Positions 15,838-52,915 of a DNA stretch of 64,000 nucleotides are shown one piece after another. The notes under the pieces were generated by a model, which worked only from the letters and a program-made list of their open reading frames with translations, did no database searches and was not told where the DNA came from. A program made the translations under genes and the position numbers. Location: positions 44,064,001 to 44,128,000 of the forward strand of contig CP068257.2 in assembly GCA_009914755.4 (NCBI GenBank). Reading direction: 5' to 3'. Within the stretch, counting starts at the first letter, position 1; every line of letters begins with the position of its first letter. This DNA is from the human T2T-CHM13v2.0 reference genome, Homo sapiens.

Positions 15838-16345
15838 TTTTTATTATTATTATTAGTGTTATACTTTAAGTTTTAGGGTACCTGTGCACAACGTGCAGGT
15901 TTGTTACATATGTATACATGTGCCATGTTGGTGTGCTGCACCCATTAACTCGTCATTTACCATTAGGTATATATCTCCTAATGCTATCCCTCCTGCCTCC
16001 CCCAACCCCACAACAGTCCCTGGTGTGTGATGTTCCCCTTCCTGTGTCCATGTGTTCTCATTGTTCAATTCCCACCTATGAGTGAGAACATGCGGTGTTT
16101 GGTTTTTTGTCCTTGCGATAGTTTGCTGAGAATGATGGTTTCCAGCTTCATCCATGTCCCTAGAAAGGACATGAACTCATCATTTTTTATGGCTGCATAG
16201 TATTCCATGGTGTATATGTGCCACATTTTCTTAATCCAGTCTATCATTGTTGGACACATGCTGCTATAACGACACATGCACACGTATGTTTATTGCGGCA
16301 CTATTCACAATAGCAAAGACTTGGAACCAACCCAAATAACTCTTC
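15838..16345 (-). mobile_element. Young L1 (L1PA-like) 3'-terminal fragment about 400 bp long plus a 90-bp inverted 5' piece, consistent with a twin-priming inversion.
   Basis: A T-rich head (the poly-A on the minus strand) is followed by gggtacctgtgcacaacgtgcaggtttgttacatatgtatacatgtgccatgttggtgtgctgcacccattaactcgtcatttac…. Minus-strand ORFs read …GIALGDIYLMVNDELMGAAHQHGTCIHM and MIDWIKKMWHIYTMEYYAAIKNDEFMSF.GTWMKLETIILSKLSQGQKTKHRMFSLIGGN (the L1 ORF2 C-terminus). At 16256-16345 the plus strand reads ctgctataacgacacatgcacacgtatgtttattgcggcactattcacaatagcaaagacttggaaccaacccaaat, the immediately upstream L1 segment (AALFTIAKTWNQPK) in opposite orientation. Confidence 0.85.
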
Positions 16346-21039: not shown

Positions 21040-24000
21040 TATTTTTTGAATTGAGGTATAATTTGCATACCATAAAATCTACCCATTAAAGCGTACAAGT
21101 GAGTAGTTTTTGGTATTAATATATTTACAGAGTTGTGTAAGTATTATCACTAATTTCAGAACATTCTTTATACCCTGAAAATAATCCCATGTACATTATC
21201 AGTCACTCTCCATTCTTTCCTTCCCTGAGAAATGGGAATGAAAATGCCAGAGTGTTTTCCAAATTGGCTGCATCATTTTGCATTCCTGCCAGCAATTTAT
21301 GAGTGTTAACAATTTTGCATGTCTTCACCAGCACTTGTTATTGTCTGTCTTTTTGATTATTACCGTTCTAGTGAATGTGAAGTAGTATATCAGTGTTATT
21401 TTGATTGGCATTTATTTCCCTGATGACTGATGATGTTGGAAAGCTTTTCATGTGCTTACTGGCCATTTGCATATATTTTCTGGGGAAATGTGTATTCAAA
21501 TCATTTTCCCATTTTTTAAGTGAGTCATGTTTTTATTGTTCTAGGAATTCTTTTTTATATTCTGGATACTAGTTCCTTATTAGATTTGCCAAATTTTCCC
21601 CTTGTTCTGTGGGTTGACTTTTTACTTTTTTGATCATGTCCTTGCAAGCATAAAAGTTTTTAATTTTAAGCCCAATTTATTTATTTTTTCTTTCATTGCT
21701 TATACTTTTGGTATCATATCTAGGAAACCACTGCCTAATCCAAGGTCACATTTTCATATTTTTCACGTTTTATTCTAAGAGCTTCAATAGGTTTAGTCCT
21801 TAGGTCTTTGATTCATTTTGAATTAATTTTCGTATATAGTATGAAATAGGGTTCCAGATTCATTCTTTAGCATGTGGATATTCAATTGTCCCAGCACACT
21901 GGGACAATTATTAAAATGAATAGTGTTTCTCCATTGAATTGTCTTGGCAGTCTTAGTCAAAACCAGTTGACTATAAATGTAAGGGTTAATTTGTTGATTT
22001 CCATATCTATATATGGGGAGGGAGAGAGAATATATCTACATCATTATACCCTGAATTAGTCTGCTAGGGCTGCCATAACAACATACTACACTGAATGGTT
22101 TAAACAGCAGAAATGTATTTTCTCATAGTTTTAGAAGCCAGAGGTCTAAAATCAAAGTGTTGGCAGCTTTGGTTTCTTCTGGGGACTCTCTCCTTGGTTT
22201 GGAGATGACATCTTCTTGCTGTGTCTTCACTGTTCTTTTGCTGTAAGGATACCAGTCCTCTTCTTGTAAGGACACTAGTTCTTTTGGATTAGGGCCCCAC
22301 CCTTATGATCTCATTTAATCCTAATTATTAATACCTCTTTAAAATCCCTGTGTTTAAATATAGTGATTTGGGGGATTAGGTCTTCAACACATGGGTTTTG
22401 TGGGGATACAGTTCAGTCCAGAACATGCCCATATAACAATGTATTGAGTGCTGTAGCTTTGTAGTAAGTTTTCAAATTGGGAAATGTGAGTCTTCTGACT
22501 TTGTTTTTCTTTTTTAAGATTGTTTTGGCTATTCTGAGTCCCTTGAGTTTTCATATGAATTTTAGAATCAGCTTGTCAATTTCTGTCAGAAAGTTGGCTG
22601 GGATTTTTATAGAGATTGCATTGAATTTGTAGATTAGTTTAGGACATATTGCCATCTTAATAATATTACATTGAACATAGGATGTTTTTCTATTTATTTA
22701 GGTTTTGTTTAATTCCTTTCCCTTTCTTGTAGTTTTTGGTGTATAAGTCTTGCATTTTTAAAAAATTAAATCTATTCCTAAGTTTTTTATTATTTTTGCT
22801 GCTATTACGAATGGATTTTTTAAAATTTTATTTTTGGATTGTTCATTGCTAGTGTACAGAAATACAATTACTTTTTGTATATTGATCCCTGCCACCTTGT
22901 TGAACTTTATTATACTAGTTTTTTAGTGGATTTCTTAGTATTTTCTATATACAATATCATGTCATCTCCAAATAGAGATATTTGTATTTTTCCTTTTCAG
23001 TCTGGATGCCCTGTATTTCTTTTTCTTGCCTAATTGTCCTGGCTAAAACCTCCAATACAGCGTTGATTGTACTGGCAAGGGCAGGCATCCTTGTCCTGTT
23101 TCTCATCTTAGGGGAAAAGCTTTCAATCTTTTACTATTGTTCATGATGTTAGCTGCGAGTTTTTCATAGATATCCATTATTAAGTTAATAAAGCTTCCTT
23201 TTATTCCTAGTTTTTTTGAGTGTTTTTATCATTAGATATATTGAAATTTGTCAAATGCTTTTTCTGTGTCTACTGAGATGATCATGTGGTTTTTGTCCTT
23301 TATTCCATTAATATGATGTATTGCATTGATCGATTTTTGGATATTAAGCCAACTTTGCATTTTGGGGATAAACCCCACTTGATTATAGTGTGTAATCTTT
23401 TTTATATATTGTTAGATTTGGTTTGCTAATATTTTTGTTGTGATGTTTTACATGTGTATTCATAAGAGACATTGGTCTTTGGTTTTCTCTTGATGTCTTT
23501 GTTTGGGTTTGGTATTGGGCTAATACTGGCCTCATAAAATGAGTTGGGAAGTATCCTTTTCTTGTCTGTAATTTTGAAAGAGTTTGTGAGGGGTTGTTGT
23601 TAATTCTTACTTAAATGTTTGGCAGAATACAGTAGTAATGCCATCTGATCCTGGACTTTTCCTTGTGGAAAGTTTTTTGGTTACTAAACCTCTTCACTTG
23701 TTTTAGGTTTGTTCAGATTTCTCTTTTATCTAGAGTCAGTTTCTGTAGTTTCTGTGTGTTTCTAGGAATTTGTTCATCTAGGCTTTTTGTTGATATAAAA
23801 TTGTTTATAGTATTTTCTTATAATCCTTTTTATTTCTGCAAGGTTGGTTGTGATGTCTCCTCTTTCATTCCTAATTTTAATAATTTGAGTCTTCTCTCCT
23901 TTTTTTTTTTTGCTAGTCTAGGTGAAGATTTGTCAATTTTTTGATCTTTTCAAGAAACTAACTTTTGGTTTTGTTTTCTATTCTGTTTAATTTCTATTTA

Positions 24001-24120
24001 ATTTCTATTTCTATTTAGTTTCTTGTTGCCATAGTATTTGTTGTTTCCTTCCTTCTGCTTGCTTTGGGTTTAGTTTTCTCTTGTTTTACTAATTTCTTAA
24101 GATGGAAGTTTAGGTTATCG
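21040..24120 (-). mobile_element. Old L1 (L1M-type) 3' UTR and ORF2 remnant of about 3 kb, split by a nested DNA-transposon-like element at 22063-22435.
   Basis: The plus strand is the reverse complement of the L1M consensus. It has the 3' end motif …ttgaattgaggtataatttgcataccataaaatctacccattaaagcgtacaa…, then …ccagcaatttatgagtgttaacaattttgcatgtc…ttctggatactagttccttattagat…, and after the insertion …tgtagctttgtagtaagttttcaaattggg…agaatcagcttgtcaatttctgtcagaaagttggctgggatttt…gttcattgctagtgtacagaaatacaattactttttgtatattgatcc…. Confidence 0.7.
22063..22435 (+). mobile_element. Nested MER-type non-autonomous DNA-transposon-like repeat; the exact family is uncertain.
   Basis: tagggctgccataacaacatactacactgaatggtttaaacagcagaaatgtattttctcatagttttagaagccagaggtctaaaatcaaagtgttggcagc…ccttatgatctcatttaatcctaatt…ggtcttcaacacatgggttttgtgggg parallels a common human repeat consensus (…gctgccataacaaa.taccacagactgggtggcttaaacaacagaaatttatt…cagttctggaggctagaagtccaagatcaaggtg…). 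It sits inside the L1. Confidence 0.55.
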
Positions 24121-25127
24121 AATTGAGATCTTGCCTCTTTTTTAAAGGTAGGTGTTTACAGCTTCGAAAGACTCCTGTCCTGTTCTGCCGCTTCCATGCC
24201 AGCCAGGCTGCTGGTTCTCATTGATTGCTGGGCTCTTGGTTTTCAAGGCTTGGATGCAGCTCGGGGGAAGGGGATGGAAGTAGGGTAAGTTAAAATGCCA
24301 CAATGCTCACTGTTCTTACCAAGGTCCAGTTGTTTTTCTTGAATCAGTGATCCTTGGATTGCTGCAAGCCTTTGATGAATTTCCAGAGCTCTTAAAAAGT
24401 TAATTGTGACAATTTTGCCAGGGTTCTCATTGCTTTTATGGAGAGGTAAGCTGTTAGTGGTTATTACTCTGCCATTCTCACAGATGCCATCTGCGTCCTA
24501 TGTTTTATAATGAACACTTTTCAAAAAATGAATGTGATTGCCACAGGATATTTTATGAAAATTGATGAATGGCTTCTAAATGTCACAAGGGGATAAAAGC
24601 ATAAGACTGGCCAACAGTTTGGAAAAGAACAGCAGTGGAGAGCTGCCTATTCATCTGATATCAAGATGCTCTGTAAAATAAAGGAGTGGAAACAGTGTGG
24701 GACTTGTGCTAAGCAGGGCCAAGCAGCAAATCTAGAGCCCAGCTAATGGGACGGGAGGTCAGTGTGTGAGAAATTTCCGTCTTGGGTTAACCCTGGCCTG
24801 GCTGAATTCGGGGAACAAGCCATGTTGTGTGATTAGCTCAGCTGTATCTGGCTGACCGTTCGTAATCCTCACCCTGCAATAAGGTTGGCTTTACCTCAGA
24901 ATTAGAGCTGAGGCAGTTTGGGAAGGGGCTTCTCAGTGGATGCGAGTGACTTGGGGCCGCTCTTGGGGATGAAGGACAGAACAGCAAGTGTTCTCAGGGA
25001 GGCTAGAGGGGCCATCACTGAGAGAGTTAAAAGAAGACAACTGAGGAACTGAGAAGTGAGAACAAGCCATACCCGGTGGCAGGAAATGTGTGCAGAGGGT
25101 TTTTAGTGTGTCTTCTCCAAGACATAC

Positions 25128-38892: not shown

Positions 38893-39559
<667 letters not shown>

Positions 39560-44373: not shown

Positions 44374-45560
44374 CCTCACCCCTTCCTGTCCATGGCCCCC
44401 TGGGTAGCCCCCCCATCTTCATCAGCCCACCCCTTCCTGTCCATTGTCTTCTGCGTGGCCCCTCCCATCTTCATCAGCCCACCCCTTCTTGTCCATGGTC
44501 CTCTGGGTGGCTCCCCCATCTTCATCAGCCCACCCCTTCCTGTCCACGGTCCTCTGGGTAGCCCCCCCATCTTCATCAGCCCACCCCTTCCTGTCCACGA
44601 TCCTCTGGGTGGCCCCCCCATCTTCATCAGCCCACCCCTTCCTGTCCACGGTCCTCTGGGTAGCCCCCCCATCTTCAGCCCACCCCTTCCTGTCCACGGT
44701 CCTCTGGGTGGCCCCACCATCTTCATCAGCCCACCCCTTCCTGTCCACGGTCCTCTGGGTAGCCCCCCATCTTCATCAGCCCACCCCTTCCTGTCCGCGG
44801 TCCTCTGGGTGGCCCCCCCATCTTCATCAGCCCACCCCTTCCTGTCCATTGTCCTCTGGGTGGCCCTCCCCCATCTTCATCAGCCCACCCCTTCCTGCCC
44901 ATTGTCCTCTGGGTGGCACCCCCCATCTTCATCAGCCCACCCCTTCCTGTCCATGGCCCCCTGGATGGCCCCCCCATCTTCATCAGCCCATCCCTTCCTG
45001 TGCATTGTCCTCTGGGTGGCCCCTCCCATCTTCATCAGCCCACCCCTTCCTGTCCATGGTCCTCTGGGTAGCCCCCCCATCTTCATCAGCCCACCCCTTC
45101 CTGTCCACGGTCCTCTGGGTAGCCCCCCCATCTTCATCAGCCCACCACTTCCTGTTTGTCCATGGCCCCCTGGATGGCCCCCCCATCTTCATCAGCCCAC
45201 CACTTCCTGTTTGTCCATGGCCTCCTGGGTGGCCCCCCGATCTTCAGCCCACCCCTTCCCGTCCATGGTCTTCTGGGTGGCCCCTCCCTTCTTCATCAGC
45301 CCATCCTTCCTGTCCATTGTCCTCTGGGTGCCCCCCCGCCATCTTCATCAGCCCACCCCTTCCTGTCCATTGTCCTCTGGGTGGCCCCTCCCATCTTCAT
45401 CAGCCCACCCCTTCCTGTCCATTGTCCTCTGGGTGGCCCCCCCATCTTCATCAGCCCACCCTTCCTGTCCATTGTGCTCTGGGTGGACCCCCCATCTTCA
45501 TCAGCCCACCCCTTCCTGCCCATGGCCCTCTGGGTGGCCTCCCCATCTTCATCAGCCCAC
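44374..45560. repeat. Minisatellite/VNTR with a 51-bp unit (17 codons), about 23 copies over about 1.2 kb. It is GC-rich (about 65%) with approximately one CpG per unit, often decayed to TpG/CpA.
   Basis: The repeating unit is cttcatcagcccaccccttcctgtcca(c/t)ggtcctctgggt(a/g)gcccccccat. The periodicity is visible from the spacing of the tcttcatcagcc landmarks at 44469, 44520 and 44571…. Variants include gtccacgg, gtccatgg and gtccattg. Because the unit is a multiple of 3, it produces the 396 and 405 aa pseudo-ORFs in the track. Confidence 0.95.
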
Positions 45561-46552: not shown

Positions 46553-49343
46553 TGAGGGGACTGAGAAGTGAGTTTCTTGTGTTGCAGACAGTGCCCCCAC
46601 GTCTTGGGAATGGCGTTACTGTGCAGCTGAACATGGGGAGGCAGTAGAGATACGGTTGACATAGGAAAGCTGTGGAAAGCTTGTCTGAGAAGGAGTCAGC
46701 CTCTCAGCCCTCTCCTACCCAGTCTGGTTCCTCCCTGGAAGGTGACTTGGGAGCCTGCCCTGCGGTGGGGGACTGTCCTAAACGGAAAGCAGGGCACGGG
46801 ATGGCTTCACTCCAGCTCCTCCTTATTTGGCCCCAGAGCACTGGGAACCTAGGAACAGACACAGGAGGGAGGGAAAGGAGCCACTTGGTGGGTGAGGAAG
46901 CTGGACGCTGGGGCCCTGGGGCGTGGCTCCAAGAAGGGCTGGAGGGTGATGTCGGGATGAGTGGGTCTGCAGTGGTCGGCCCCATGGCTAGGAGTTTGGA
47001 AAGAAATCAACCTAAGTTCATAGAACACCAAAGAAAGCAGTGGGGAGGCCCTTATTCACTGTGAGAAGCAGAAACATTGTGCAAGAAGGGAGCTGCAGCA
47101 TCAGGTGTGGGTACCAGGTGCACAGCCAGCGAGGGGAGTCCTGGAAAGTGGGGAGGAGGGCGAGGTAGGGGCTCAGGAGAGTCAGTGCTCATCTTTTATA
47201 GCAGGAAGCTAACAGCTGATACATAAAGTTGTAAGATCAAGAATAGCAATACAAACTCAGTAATTAGAAATATGGAGATAAAGAAATGCCAAAAGAGGCT
47301 AAGAGCTCAGGGAAGGATTGTGATGTAGGGGGCAAGGGAGGGGTAGGGCCACTGCTTTTCATAAGCTTTATCGAATTATTTGCTTTTAAAAACTGTGTAT
47401 ATTTATAGTTTTATTAAAAATAAAAAATTTTAAAGGTTATATGGCAAATATTATTTTATAAAAAATTGATGAACCTCAGGCCCTGAGCTCCCTTGCTTGC
47501 CCTGCTCCTGCCAGGGCAGACTTCCACTGCCCTTGCCCTCTGGTCCTCTCCACTTCAGAGGCCCGGCCTCTGGCTTGGTGAATCTGAGGCAGATCTTTCT
47601 CCTCAGGTTGCTTGAGCTCTGCAGCGTTAGGCCTGGTGAGCGCCTCTTGCCCAGTGCCCTGGGGGCGGTGGGGAAATTCCAGTCCAGACTGTCTGCCTCA
47701 GGCATTCAGTACACACTTTCGTGCCCTGCTTTTTAACTGAATAGTATTCTGCAAAGTGTTCGACCTTACCTAGTTTGAGAACATTATTTTTAGAAGGTTG
47801 CATGGTTTCCCATGTTGTGGATCTAGGTATCATTTATTGGATTATTCCCTTTTTGTTTATTTTTTCTGATTTTCCACTAATATCCATAATACGAGGTAAA
47901 CACCCTTGTGCATAAATCCACAGCAGCTTCCTCTCTTTTGTAGGCAGTGTTCACACCTACAGAATTCCTGGGTCAGAGGACATGGACATTTAAAAGAGGC
48001 ATAATGTGTAATTGCCAGGTTGATCTCAAAAGTGCAAGTTTGTACTTGAACAAGGCTGTACCAGAGTGCCTGTGCTGTTGTATCCTGACACACCAGGTAC
48101 TGCATACGTCTCCATCTCGAAATGCAGAAGCACACTGAACACACATGGCTTAGCTCTTTAACAATAATGTCGTTTTCCCCCATGCTCATAAGCATTCTTG
48201 CATTATTGAAGATACTCTGCTTTTATGTCTGTGGGAGGAATTTTCCCCAGTTGAGTCGTGCACTTTTTCATCTGATCTGTAGCATTTTGGGTAGCTCGCT
48301 CAGTATTTTCCGTTGTGATGTTGTCTCTTATTGTGTTTACATTTAGAAAATCCTTTTCTTGGGATTTAATTAGGTGTATGTTCTTAGGTGAAGATCTAAG
48401 TTATTTTTTCTTATATTAGAAACACCATTTATTCAAAATACTTCATTTTTCTAATGATTCATGCTGCAACTTTTTATGTATGTGTACCACATATGAAAAT
48501 ATTGTGTATTTTAGTGTCTGTTTCTGAATTCTCTAATTGACCTCTTTGTTCTAGTGCTGGTACACTGTTTTAATTATTTTAGTTTCACGATATATTTCCA
48601 TATCTGATAAAGGTAACCAATATTTCAAAAAATATTTTGGTTATTCTTGGCTACCTACTTTCTAAATGAACTTTAGAATGATTTTCAAGTTTAAAAAGTT
48701 AATCATATTGAGGTTTCTTTTCAAATGGATCAGATCTATAATTTAAATTATAAACAGCTGACATTTTAACAATATTTAAATAGTTTCCTATATAGAAAGG
48801 GAATCTGTCTTTCCATTTATTCTGTTATTAGCCTTCAGTTACATTTCATAGCTTTCTTGCTGTAGGTTTTATCTTTCAAATTTTTTTCCAACTAATTTGT
48901 GTTATTTGGTTATTGTAATTGGGATTTTTCCCATTGCATTTATCAAATATTTAACATTATATAGGAAAACTATCAGTTTTTATATATTTGAATGTGGTCA
49001 CATGTTAAAATGGTTTTATTTGCAAAAGGGTTTTCAGGTGAAATTTGACTTATTTTTACCTTGACCCAACATTCACCATGAAGTATGCTCCCTGTAGCTC
49101 TCTGGTATATATTCTTCATTAAGCTACAGAAGTTTTCTTTTATTGCTATTTATTAAGTTACGTGTTTTTTAAAATCAAAAAAGTTGCATTTCACTAAATG
49201 TGTTCATTGCTACTATTTAGGTGGTTGTATGATTCCTGCTTTTGTCTCTCAATGGAGTGAATTCTGTTCCTGACATTCCAAGTGTTGATTCTTGGAATAA
49301 ACCCCGTTAGGCCATAGCTCTTCCAATTATAATATGCTCCCAG

Positions 49344-49500
49344 TATCTTATTGGGACTAGAATAAGGGTTAATAATAGGGTTAGGGCTAGAGTTAAGGCT
49401 AGCATAAGGGTTGGAGTTACCGTTAGTGTTCGAGTTATTGTAAAGGTTAGGATTAGGGTTACTGTTAGGGTTATCGTGAGGGTTATGGCTAGGGTGATAG
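49344..49500 (+). repeat. Degenerate interstitial telomere-like array of about 26 hexamers derived from (TTAGGG)n, with the G-rich strand on the plus strand.
   Basis: taagggttaataatagggttagggctagagttaaggctagcataagggttggagttaccgttagtgttcgagttattgtaaaggttaggattagggttactgttagggttatcgtgagggttatggctagggtgatagtg. It has strict 6-bp periodicity with ttaggg, tagggt and tgaggg variants. Confidence 0.75.
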
Positions 49501-49931
49501 TGCTCTATAAGGTTCTTTTTTTTCTAATTTTTATATGATTTTGGCAATAAATGATAGCTTGCTTTCATAACATGATTTGAGAATTGTCCCATGTTTTTCT
49601 ATCCTTTAAATAACAAATTTTTCTGTCTTCTGTTTAGAAATGCAAATGTTATCAGCCTTCGATAGAATTCTACCTTTAATAGAATTCGTCTATCAAAGCT
49701 GCTAAGCCTGGAGCCTATTTTGGAGACTGATTTTTTAGTGTCTATATAATTTCTACCATGGTTATTGATTTTATACACATTTTCTTATACACCAATGGTT
49801 TTTGCTTAGGAAACAGTCAGTTTTAAGCAAGTTTTTAGGTATATAGGTAAAAATGTGTATATGTTTTATATATATATATATACATATGTATGTATATAAC
49901 ATATATATGTTGTGCTCGTCATTTTTCAGTC

Positions 49932-50246
49932 TTTAAAAATTTTTAACTTAATTTAATTTTTCTTTTTATTATTTTTTTAGAGACAGAGCCACACTCTGTT
50001 GGATGTTGATCCCAGCTCACCGCAGCCTTGAACTCCTGGGCTCAAGCGATCCTTCCACCTCAGTCTCCCACGTAGCTGGGACTACAGGCATGTGCCAACG
50101 CATCCAGCTAATTTTTAAAATTTTTTTAGGCACTGGGGTCTTGCTTAGATGCTCAGGCTAGTCTCAAACTCCTTGGCCTCAAGTGATCTTCCTGCCACGT
50201 CCTCTCAAAGTGCTAGGATTACAGGTGTAGGCCACCATGCCGGGCC
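49932..50246 (-). mobile_element. Alu SINE (AluJ-like) with a long degenerate T-rich tail; TSD tttttcagtc.
   Basis: …tttagagacagagccacactctgttggatgttgatcccagctcaccgcagccttgaactcctgggctcaagcgatcc…gctaggattacaggtgtaggccaccatgccgggcc. tttttcagtc is present at 49922-49931 and 50250-50259. Confidence 0.9.
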
Positions 50247-51639: not shown

Positions 51640-52915
51640 TGCCACACGGTGTTGTGTCAGCATCGCTGTGTCAGTCCATTGACGTAGCGCCACACGGTGT
51701 TGTGTCAGCATCGCTGTGTCAGTCCATTGACGTAGCGCACACGGTGTTGTGTCAGCATCGCTGTCAGTCCATTGACGTAGCGCACACGGTGTTGTGTCAG
51801 CATCGCCGTGTCAGTCCACTGACGTAGCGCACACGGTGTTGTCAGCATCGCTGTGTCAGTCCATTGACGTAGCGCACACGGTGTTGTGTCAGCATCGCTG
51901 TCAGTCCATTGACGTAGCGCCACACGGTGTTGTCAGCATCACTGTGTCAGTCCATTGACGTAGCGCACACGGTGTTGTCAGCATCGCCGTGTCAGTCCAT
52001 TGACGTAGCGCACACGGTGTTGTCAGCATCGCCGTGTCAGTCCATTGACGTAGCGCACACGGTGTTGTCAGCATCGCCGTGTCAGTCCATTGACGTAGCG
52101 CACACGGTGTTGTCAGCATCGCCGTGTCAGTCCATTGACGTAGCGCACACGGTGTTGTCAGCATCGCCGTGTCAGTCCATTGACGTAGCGCACACGGTGT
52201 TGTCAGCATCGCCGTGTCAGTCCATTGACGTAGCGCACACGGTGGTGTCAGCATCGCCGTGTCAGTCCATTGACGTAGCGCACACGGTGGTGTCAGCATC
52301 GCCGTGTCAGTCCATTGACGTAGCGCACACGGTGGTGTCAGCATCGCCGTGTCAGTCCATTGACGTAGCGCACACGGTGGTGTCAGCATCGCCGTGTCAG
52401 TCCATTGACGTAGCGCACACGGTGGTGTCAGCATCGCCGTGTCAGTCCATTGACGTAGCGCACACGGTGGTGTCAGCATCGCCGTGTCAGTCCATTGACG
52501 TAGCGCCACATGGTGGTGTCAGCATCGCCGTGTCAGTCCACTGACGTAGCGCACACGGTGTGGTGTCAGCATCGCCGTGTCAGTCCACTGACGTAGCGCA
52601 CACGGTGTTGTGTCAGCATCGCCGTGTCAGTCCACTGACGTAGCGCACACGGTGTTGTGTCAGCATCGCCGTGTCAGTCCACTGACGTAGCTCACACGGT
52701 GTTGTGTCAGCATCGCCGTGTCAGTCCACTGACGTAGCTCACACGGTGTTGTGTCAGCATCGCCGTGTCAGTCCATTGACGTAGCTCACACGGTGTTGTG
52801 TCAGCATCGCCGTGTCAGTCCATTGACGTAGCGCCACACGGTGTTGTCAGCATCGCTGTGTCAGTCCATTGACGTAGCGCACACGGTGTTGTCAGCATCG
52901 CTGTGTCAGTCCATT
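51640..52915. repeat. CpG-rich minisatellite/VNTR with a 45-bp unit (47-48 bp in edge variants), about 28 copies over about 1.28 kb. It has about 58% GC, 5 CpG per unit (observed/expected above 1), and every unit carries ccattgacgtagcgc (a TGACGTAG motif).
   Basis: The unit is tgtcagcatcgccgtgtcagtccattgacgtagcgcacacggtgt. The period of 45 is confirmed by the spacing of the tgtcagcatc landmarks at 52021, 52066 and 52111. Variant blocks are ggtgttgtcagc (about 51900-52240), ggtggtgtcagc (about 52240-52500), and ggtgttgtgtcagc with ccactgacg and tagctcaca (about 52500-52800). It produces the in-frame 202 and 205 aa pseudo-ORFs. Confidence 0.95.

What the first reader, a model, noticed from the sequence alone, without database searches (positions are those of the whole stretch)
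49344..49500. Degenerate interstitial telomeric repeat (about 26 TTAGGG-derived hexamers) embedded between old L1 fragments
The 6-bp periodicity with ttaggg, tagggt and tgaggg variants is unmistakable, but the array is heavily mutated, so it is an old insertion or fusion relic. Interstitial telomeric sequences arise from telomerase-mediated break repair or from ancestral subtelomere or fusion sites. They are fragile, recombinogenic and can bind shelterin components. The G-strand orientation on the plus strand hints at the original centromere-to-telomere direction of the relic.
Basis: seen in the sequence. Interest (0 to 1): 0.5.

Follow-up and report, generated by a model that had tools for sequence, protein, structure and literature searches.

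The report
Decayed telomere-like repeat inside old L1
A roughly 130-base run of worn-down TTAGGG telomere-type repeats sits inside a single ancient L1 retrotransposon in a primate genome, most likely patched in during repair of an old DNA break; this is a well-known, ordinary kind of sequence.

Summary
From about 49351/49363 to 49494/49500 the plus strand carries 21-25 hexamers in one unbroken phase. Their consensus is exactly TTAGGG, with 74-76% identity. The 6-base periodicity is the strongest in the window (z about 6.8). The best stretch matches (TTAGGG)4 with 3 mismatches, against 0 expected by chance.

The flanks are two contiguous halves of one very old antisense L1, not two separate fragments. 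ORF2 codons 451-534 lie to the right and codons 544-634 to the left. About 136 bases stand where 27 L1 bases are expected. Two other L1 copies in the window have no array at this site.

So this is an insertion-type interstitial telomeric sequence, of the kind attributed to telomerase-assisted double-strand-break repair. It has since decayed and was partly reshaped by 12-base duplications. It is not a fusion or chromosome-end relic: there is no CCCTAA arm and the same L1 lies on both sides. The strand orientation therefore says nothing about an old centromere-to-telomere direction.

It is too degenerate for the published human catalogues, which require under one mismatch per unit. Shelterin binding and fragility are untested and unlikely to be strong. 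Dating by orthologous loci was not possible with these tools. Interest is low and the kind is already known.

The parts
49369..49494 (+). Core inserted array: 21 TTAGGG-derived hexamers, G strand on the plus strand, one phase, 76% identity to (TTAGGG)21.
   Evidence: It has no similarity to L1 ORF2p (z -1.1). It is absent at the same site in two other L1 copies (alignment A1).
49351..49368 (+). Left junction zone (TTGGGA CTAGAA TAAGGG). It is in phase with the array but could be either L1 antisense sequence or the first decayed telomeric units. It holds the possible TAAGGG priming microhomology.
   Evidence: The ORF2 motif I-S-L-M, read antisense, gives CAT-NAG-NGA, that is a TNAGNG hexamer, by the genetic code applied to the ORF2p sequence verified.
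49495..49500 (-). TGATAG. It looks like a last hexamer but is L1 ORF2 codons S534 and I533 (here TCA CTA on the minus strand).
   Evidence: Frameshift-tolerant alignment, (YRALS against FRPIS).
49441..49494 (+). Right-hand block with a 12-base superperiod (TTAGGG alternating with TTAYNG). It is read as later tandem duplication of a mutated dimer.
   Evidence: TRF period 12 with 80% matches. Repeat spacings are mostly 12. A permutation test on unit order gives p about 0.01. This block is 80% identical to TTAGGGTTATCG and 78% identical to TTAGGG.
49495..49771 (-). Host L1, upstream half: decayed ORF2 codons 451-534, at the start of the reverse-transcriptase region.
   Evidence: tblastn HSPs. Frameshift-tolerant alignment scores 60 against a null of 40.5 +/- 5.7.
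49105..49358 (-). Host L1, downstream half: decayed ORF2 codons 544-634 (NKIL...GFIPG...), colinear with the upstream half.
   Evidence: score 61 against a null of 37.3 +/- 4.3.
48358..48610 (-). Further colinear part of the same L1 (ORF2 codons 872-962).
   Evidence: The HSPs are individually weak (E 0.5) but lie on the same strand and in order.

Best explanation
This is an ancient, decayed, insertion-type interstitial telomeric sequence. Steps marked 'shown' rest on tool results; steps marked 'inferred' do not.

1. An already resident L1 lay antisense to the window's plus strand (shown).
2. The L1 suffered a double-strand break in the ORF2 region that encodes ...RPISLMNIDAKIL... (inferred).
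3. A run of TTAGGG repeats was added to the 3' end of the left-hand plus strand. Telomerase most likely did this. It may have primed on the TNAGNG hexamer that the antisense of the I-S-L-M codons provides (inferred).
4. The broken ends were rejoined, with loss of up to 27 bases of L1 (inferred).
5. The array then decayed as neutral DNA to about 75% identity. It was partly reshaped by tandem duplication of mutated 12-base dimers (inferred from a 12-base superperiod that is shown).
6. It has no evident present function.
For: - Periodicity and an exact TTAGGG consensus are shown.
- TTAGGG fits the array better than any L1-derived 12-mer: 75% against 62-67%. The array's own 12-mer consensus is TTAGGGTTAGGG.
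- The flanks are colinear halves of one L1 ORF2. Residues 451-534 map to 49771-49495 and residues 565-634 map to 49304-49105 (HSPs). NKIL resumes at about 49358.
- As a result, 136 bases stand where 27 are expected.
- Two other L1 copies in the window lack the array at this site.
- Read in the upstream L1 frame, the array falls in its stop-rich frame (frame f2). A retrotransposition-competent source L1 could therefore not have carried it.
- All units have one orientation and there is no CCCTAA arm.
- The literature supports this mechanism. [quoted passage not shown] For 16 ITSs shared by human and chimpanzee, the insertion mechanism was inferred from the consensus of the repetitive element they interrupt, which is the logic used here (PMC2246262).
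- Degenerate ITSs conserved between horse and human are already documented (PMC7215372).
Against: - No empty orthologous site could be examined, so insertion is inferred only from paralogous L1 copies and ORF2 colinearity.
- The junctions are too decayed to show microhomology or to place the break to better than about 12 bases.
- The substitution spectrum is transversion-rich. Transitions are 14 of 34 to 19 of 39 substitutions, giving binomial p of 0.002-0.1 against an expected 60-67% transitions.
- Mismatches concentrate at the first two Gs of each unit (contingency p 0.01-0.04).
- CpG is not depleted: 3 observed against 3.2 expected from composition.
- There is no phase-breaking indel, although the flanking L1 shows about one frameshift per 60 bases (P(0) about 0.1).
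- Together these points leave room for an array that was imperfect at birth, or that grew in place.
Confidence: 0.7

Rival explanations
1. In-place birth. The array is a mini- or microsatellite that expanded by slippage or tandem duplication from the L1's own antisense sequence at this site (consensus type CAT-NAG-NGA-TAT-TGG, for example TAAGGGATATTG). It is telomere-like only by convergence.
For: - The L1 site intrinsically encodes a TNAGNG hexamer. This follows from the verified ORF2p and from the copies, which read TAAGAG and TGAGGA.
- The 12-base superperiod is significant.
- The right block's alternate unit TTAYNG resembles the L1 ATATTG.
- No phase-breaking indels are seen.
- Mismatches are unevenly distributed over the hexamer positions.
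Against: - The L1-derived 12-mers fit clearly worse than pure TTAGGG, at 62-67% against 75%. Both halves of the array's own 12-mer consensus are TTAGGG.
- Lag-6 identity (0.556) is close to lag-12 identity (0.636). A TAAGGG/ATATTG dimer would give only about 0.33 at lag 6.
- A single hexamer copy is a poor substrate for slippage.
- ITSs are reported to arise at once rather than by stepwise microsatellite growth (PMC2246262).
Confidence: 0.15
2. Born degenerate. A pre-existing stretch of variant telomere-like repeats, for example from a subtelomere or the proximal part of a telomere, or a cDNA of telomeric-repeat RNA, was copied or captured into the break by templated repair. Telomerase did not synthesise it at the site.
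For: - This would explain high divergence without phase-breaking indels, the unusual spectrum and the undepleted CpG.
- The neighbourhood is rich in minisatellites. From my own knowledge, that is typical of distal chromosome bands, where degenerate telomere-like blocks occur (PMC6410037).
Against: - The variants present (TTACCG, TTATTG, TTCGAG, CTAGCA) are not the usual proximal-telomere variants TTGGGG, TGAGGG and TCAGGG (my own knowledge). Only one TGAGGG occurs.
- No non-hexamer subtelomeric sequence came in with the array.
- The statistical oddities are each only marginal.
Confidence: 0.1
3. Relic of an ancestral chromosome end or of a telomere-telomere fusion, so that the orientation records the old centromere-to-telomere direction.
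For: Only the presence of telomere-type repeats and the minisatellite-rich surroundings.
Against: - Both flanks are adjacent parts of the same L1 ORF2, only 9 codons apart.
- There is no head-to-head CCCTAA arm.
- The array is only about 130 bases long.
Confidence: 0.02
4. The array was part of the L1 itself, carried by its source element or acquired by template switching during reverse transcription. It would then exist in many L1 copies.
For: It lies wholly inside L1 sequence. Other copies of this particular, unidentified L1 subfamily could not be examined.
Against: - Human ORF2p and two other in-window L1 copies lack it.
- In the upstream L1 reading frame the array is full of stop codons, and the replaced length (136 for 27 bases) shifts the frame. 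This would destroy the reverse transcriptase that the element needs in cis.
- Template switching would require two switches landing 27 bases apart.
Confidence: 0.03

Closest known systems
Short interstitial telomeric sequences inserted at double-strand-break sites (Nergadze et al. 2004/2007, PMC2246262; Santagostino et al. 2020, PMC7215372)
   Same: - It is a head-to-tail TTAGGG array in one orientation at an internal site.
- It interrupts a pre-existing sequence, here a repetitive element.
- It probably came with a small flanking deletion and possibly with in-register nucleotides at the break.
   Different: - It is far more decayed, at 1.3-1.6 mismatches per unit. The catalogues require under one mismatch per unit, so it would not be listed among the 83 or 229 human loci.
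- At 21-23 units it is longer than many short ITSs.
- It shows a 12-base superperiod.
Degenerate ITSs conserved between horse and human (four loci mentioned in PMC7215372)
   Same: These are ancient TTAGGG arrays too degenerate for the catalogue criterion. Like this one, they imply insertions that are old on the scale of the placental-mammal radiation.
   Different: Conservation of the present locus across mammals was not tested here. Whether it is one of those four loci is unknown.
[quoted passage not shown]
   Same: The repeats are degenerate, and the local environment is rich in minisatellites.
   Different: Subtelomeric ITSs mark boundaries between subtelomeric blocks. This array is enclosed by one continuous L1 and brought in no subtelomeric sequence.
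Fusion ITS at human 2q13-q14
   Same: Both consist of degenerate TTAGGG-type repeats at an internal site.
   Different: The 2q13 site is a head-to-head (TTAGGG)n-(CCCTAA)n junction between two former chromosome ends. Here there is one orientation and a single element on both sides.

Membership tests
Short (insertion-type) ITS | Tandem head-to-tail TTAGGG hexamers in a single orientation at a non-terminal site | tested here: met
   The consensus is TTAGGG, in one phase, with the G strand on the plus strand, inside a 64 kb window.
Short (insertion-type) ITS | Catalogue criterion: at least four units with fewer than one mismatch per unit (PMC2246262, PMC7215372) | tested here: not met
   The whole array has 30-39 mismatches in 21-25 units, or 1.4-1.6 per unit. 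Only the local block 49447-49470 meets the criterion, with 4 units and 3 mismatches.
Short (insertion-type) ITS | The array interrupts a sequence that is continuous when empty (an orthologous empty locus or a repetitive-element consensus) | tested here: met
   The test used the repetitive-element route. ORF2p residues 451-534 and 544/565-634 flank the array colinearly. Two paralogous L1 copies are continuous at this site. The orthologous empty locus could not be tested.
Short (insertion-type) ITS | [quoted passage not shown] | tested here: inconclusive
   The L1 antisense sequence provides a TNAGNG hexamer at the site, and TAAGGG at 49363 is in register. The junction is too decayed to tell L1 bases from repeat bases.
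Fusion ITS | Head-to-head (TTAGGG)n/(CCCTAA)n arrays flanked by sequences from two former chromosome ends | tested here: not met
   There is no CCCTAA in or next to the array and no inverted repeat of the array. The same L1 lies on both sides.
Subtelomeric ITS | A degenerate array lying between subtelomeric duplicated blocks near a chromosome end | not testable with these tools
   The chromosomal position is unknown. The immediate flanks are one L1, which argues against membership. Two large minisatellites lie within 5 kb.
TERC-ITS | Telomeric repeats flanked by a fragment retrotranscribed from telomerase RNA (PMC2246262, PMC8537989) | tested here: not met
   A lenient Rfam scan of 48800-50000 (E up to 10) gives no telomerase RNA match. 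The flanks are accounted for by L1.
L1 (LINE-1) retrotransposon (the host element) | Colinear similarity to ORF2 protein on one strand | tested here: met
   Minus-strand HSPs fall in order for residues 451-483, 499-534, 564-584, 588-609, 872-937 and 939-962. Shuffle z-scores are 3.4 and 5.5. Pfam alone did not detect it.

The most novel reading that the evidence does not exclude
The most novel reading not excluded has two forms.

1. The antisense of the conserved L1 ORF2 motif I-S-L-M (CAT-NAG-NGA) acts as a recurrent seeding site. A broken L1 at this motif offers telomerase a ready-made primer, so old L1s would be preferred landing sites for telomeric repeats.
2. The same motif can grow into a telomere-like minisatellite by 12-base duplication with no telomerase at all. 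This would be a convergent 'pseudo-ITS'.
Probability: 0.1. Interest if true: 0.3.

Novelty: already known. Interest (0 to 1): 0.1.

Why it matters
It matters little beyond correct annotation. The locus adds one more ancient, degenerate interstitial telomeric sequence to a class already described in primates, rodents and horse.

Two points are useful:
- It is a break-repair scar inside a single L1, not a karyotype-evolution marker. It should not be used to infer ancestral chromosome ends or their orientation.
- Arrays this decayed escape the catalogues, which require under one mismatch per unit, and they also escape TRF's period-6 call. Counts of ancient ITS insertions are therefore underestimates.

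Tried and rejected
Searches that found nothing useful:
- A Pfam scan of three-frame translations of the flanks found nothing.
- phmmer of the conceptual translation against PDB gave only a spurious low-complexity match of the NPN-rich frame to circumsporozoite protein.
- DNA blastn of the host L1 against the other in-window L1 copies found only one short HSP, because the host is too diverged. I therefore used ORF2p, verified against PDB 8uw3, with tblastn and my own frameshift-tolerant alignment.
- Rfam gave no hit at gathering threshold in the whole window, and no telomerase RNA hit at lenient threshold near the array.

Attempts to reach orthologous loci all failed:
- An exact 24-mer scan of metagenome contigs returned 0.
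- Exact look-ups of five window ORFs, including the 32-aa ORF inside the array, found none on record.
- Because of these results I did not spend a 13 CPU-hour protein search. The collection evidently holds no ORF calls from this non-coding region.

Explanations considered and rejected:
- A coding dipeptide repeat. The (V-R)n and (N-P)n frames are open only because TTAGGG has a stop in one frame per strand. There is no start codon and no recorded product.
- A transposon other than L1 carrying the array. The insert is hexameric from end to end.
- Chance low complexity.

Full report
**1. The observation**

The plus strand between about 49351 and 49500 reads as a series of hexamers in one register. 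I phased them on the exact TTAGGG at 49381. In that phase the 25 units from 49351 to 49500 match TTAGGG at 111 of 150 positions (74%). Nothing breaks the phase.

Three units are exact, at 49381, 49453 and 49465. TGAGGG occurs once, at 49477. The column-wise consensus of 21, 23 or 25 units is exactly TTAGGG.

Autocorrelation peaks at every multiple of six. Lag 6 is 0.556, against 0.297 +/- 0.038 in 5000 shuffles, whose maximum was 0.444. No other 141-base stretch of the window reaches this value. A (TTAGGG)4 probe with up to three mismatches hits only 49447-49470, with zero hits in 100 shuffles.

So the periodicity and the telomeric consensus are real. Some corrections are minor:
- 49344-49350 is not repeat.
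- About 23-25 units are recognisable, not 26.
- TRF reports periods 12, 18 and 24 but no period-6 row.

**2. The surroundings**

The window is primate DNA, since it contains Alu signatures.

The flanks of the array looked like antisense L1, so I tested this. A segment of human L1 ORF2p written from memory was first verified as identical to PDB chains 8c8j and 8uw3. tblastn then gave colinear minus-strand matches:

| ORF2p residues | Window coordinates |
|---|---|
| 451-483 | 49771-49673 |
| 499-534 | 49602-49495 |
| 564-584 | 49307-49248 |
| 588-609 | 49249-49184 |
| 872-962 | 48610-48358 |

Each match is weak on its own. I therefore wrote a frameshift-tolerant local alignment and compared its scores with shuffles:
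- The right flank aligns to residues 451-534 (score 60 against 40.5 +/- 5.7).
- The left flank aligns to residues 565-634 (score 61 against 37.3 +/- 4.3).
- The array itself has no ORF2 similarity (z -1.1).

In the translation, NKIL (residues 544-547) resumes at about 49358. Hence 136 bases (49359-49494) stand where nine codons (27 bases; L-M-N-I-D-A-K-I-L) are expected.

Two other L1 copies in the same window (about 23700-23230 and 34470-33990) run straight through this site without any array (alignment A1).

The 'L1 fragments' on either side are therefore one L1, and the array is an insertion or replacement within it. Read in the upstream L1 frame, the array falls in the frame full of TAG/TAA stops (frame f2). 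The length change also shifts the frame. A working source L1 could not have carried it. I infer that the array entered after this L1 copy was already in the chromosome.

**3. What it is not**

- It is not a fusion-type site. There is no CCCTAA in or beside the array and no inverted copy of it.
- It is not a relic of a chromosome end or of an ancestral subtelomere, because the same element lies on both sides.
- It is not a TERC-ITS. No telomerase RNA fragment adjoins it in a lenient Rfam scan.
- Nothing suggests it codes for protein. The open (V-R)n and (N-P)n frames follow from the TTAGGG unit itself. There is no start codon, and the only ORF (32 aa) is not on record anywhere.

**4. Most likely mechanism**

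The anatomy matches the insertion-type ITS described by Nergadze and colleagues (PMC2246262):
- Telomeric repeats appear suddenly at a double-strand break.
- In 52% of primate cases a few flanking bases are deleted.
[quoted passage not shown] This points to telomerase.
- For 16 ITSs shared by human and chimpanzee, those authors inferred the insertion mechanism from the consensus of the repetitive element that was interrupted. That is the same logic I used here.

The antisense of the I-S-L-M codons is CAT-NAG-NGA. The L1 thus offers a TNAGNG hexamer right at the break. The TAAGGG at 49363 is in register with the array. The junction is too decayed to show that these bases are L1 rather than repeat, so microhomology remains an inference.

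Two readings of the left junction are possible:
- The array is 49369-49494 (21 units), primed on an L1 TAAGGG.
- The array is 49357-49494 (23 units), with 27 L1 bases deleted.

**5. Later history**

If the array was born perfect, 24-26% mismatch corresponds to a Jukes-Cantor distance of about 0.29-0.32. By my own general knowledge of mammalian neutral rates, that is of the order of 100 million years. This fits a host L1 so decayed that Pfam and phmmer miss it. Degenerate ITSs shared by horse and human are already reported (PMC7215372).

The array is not a simple decay product, however. Identity at unit lag 2 exceeds lag 1 (0.643 against 0.553), with a permutation p of about 0.01. Repeat spacings are mostly 12. 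The right block reads TTAGGG alternating with TTAYNG. I read this as tandem duplication of already mutated dimers. That agrees with the known length instability of ITSs (PMC7215372).

**6. The main rival**

The array might have grown in place from the L1's own 12-mer (type TAAGGGATATTG). I tested this directly:
- That unit, or its TTAGGGATATTG variant, fits at 62-67%, against 75% for TTAGGG.
- The array's own 12-mer consensus is TTAGGGTTAGGG in both phases.
- Lag-6 identity is nearly as high as lag-12. A TAAGGG/ATATTG dimer would give about 0.33 at lag 6.

The rival is weakened but not excluded, especially for the right block. I give it about 0.15.

**7. Small unexplained points**

- Substitutions away from TTAGGG are about half transversions (14:20 to 19:20). 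They concentrate on the first two Gs of the unit.
- CpG is not depleted: 3 observed against 3.2 expected from composition, while the window-wide observed/expected ratio is 0.25.
- There is no phase-breaking indel, although the flanking L1 shows about one frameshift per 60 bases (P(0) about 0.1).

Each point is marginal, and several variants are not independent because of the dimer duplications. G-run-specific damage is a speculative explanation from my own knowledge. Alternatively, these points could mean the array was imperfect when it arrived. That is the 'captured degenerate donor' rival, to which I give about 0.1.

**8. Function**

Only two YTAGGGTTR sites survive, at 49453 and 49465. Two long-loop G-run clusters remain. 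Published TRF1/TRF2 occupancy of ITSs depends on length and sequence conservation (PMC6410037). I therefore expect little or no shelterin binding and no special fragility, but neither was testable here.

**9. Limits**

The orthologue test that would date the event and prove an empty site could not be run. The metagenome scan and five exact ORF look-ups found nothing. The other collections hold no primate genomes.

**10. Verdict**

It is not a fusion or chromosome-end relic, and its orientation carries no information about an old chromosome end. It is an ordinary member of a known class and of low interest.

Noticed in passing
window 51643-52915: A large, very regular minisatellite: 45-base unit, 27.8 copies, 96% matches. 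It is CpG-rich (observed/expected above 1, while the window average is 0.25) and gives long artificial ORFs on both strands.
   Followed up: no
window 44377-45560: A second large GC-rich minisatellite: 51-base unit, 23 copies, 89% matches, with a 103-base higher order. Two such arrays within 8 kb suggest a minisatellite-rich, possibly distal, chromosome region. That inference is from my own knowledge.
   Followed up: no
window 16068-16336: A young L1 3' end, 93% amino-acid identity to human ORF2p. Two segments diverge from the same point (16256) on opposite strands: residues 1213-1275 on minus and 1186-1212 on plus. The pattern looks like an L1 inversion of the twin-priming type.
   Followed up: no
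window 22425-24143 (minus strand): An L1 copy aligns to human ORF2p residues 307-891 as a single 599-aa HSP with no frameshift, at only 39% identity (E 1e-80). It is an old L1 lineage whose reading frame is unusually well kept.
   Followed up: no
window 49363-49500: Within the array, substitutions away from TTAGGG are about half transversions and cluster on the first two Gs of each unit. CpG is not depleted (3 observed, 3.2 expected). No phase-breaking indel is present. Each effect is only marginally significant.
   Followed up: partly
window 49867-49908: An imperfect (TA)n tract about 370 bases right of the array, within or next to the same L1. It produces weak, sub-threshold microRNA-like Rfam hits that are most likely chance hairpins.
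   Followed up: no
window 38974-39559: TRF reports a 314-base period with 1.9 copies at 83% identity, which is two adjacent Alu-type elements in tandem.
   Followed up: no
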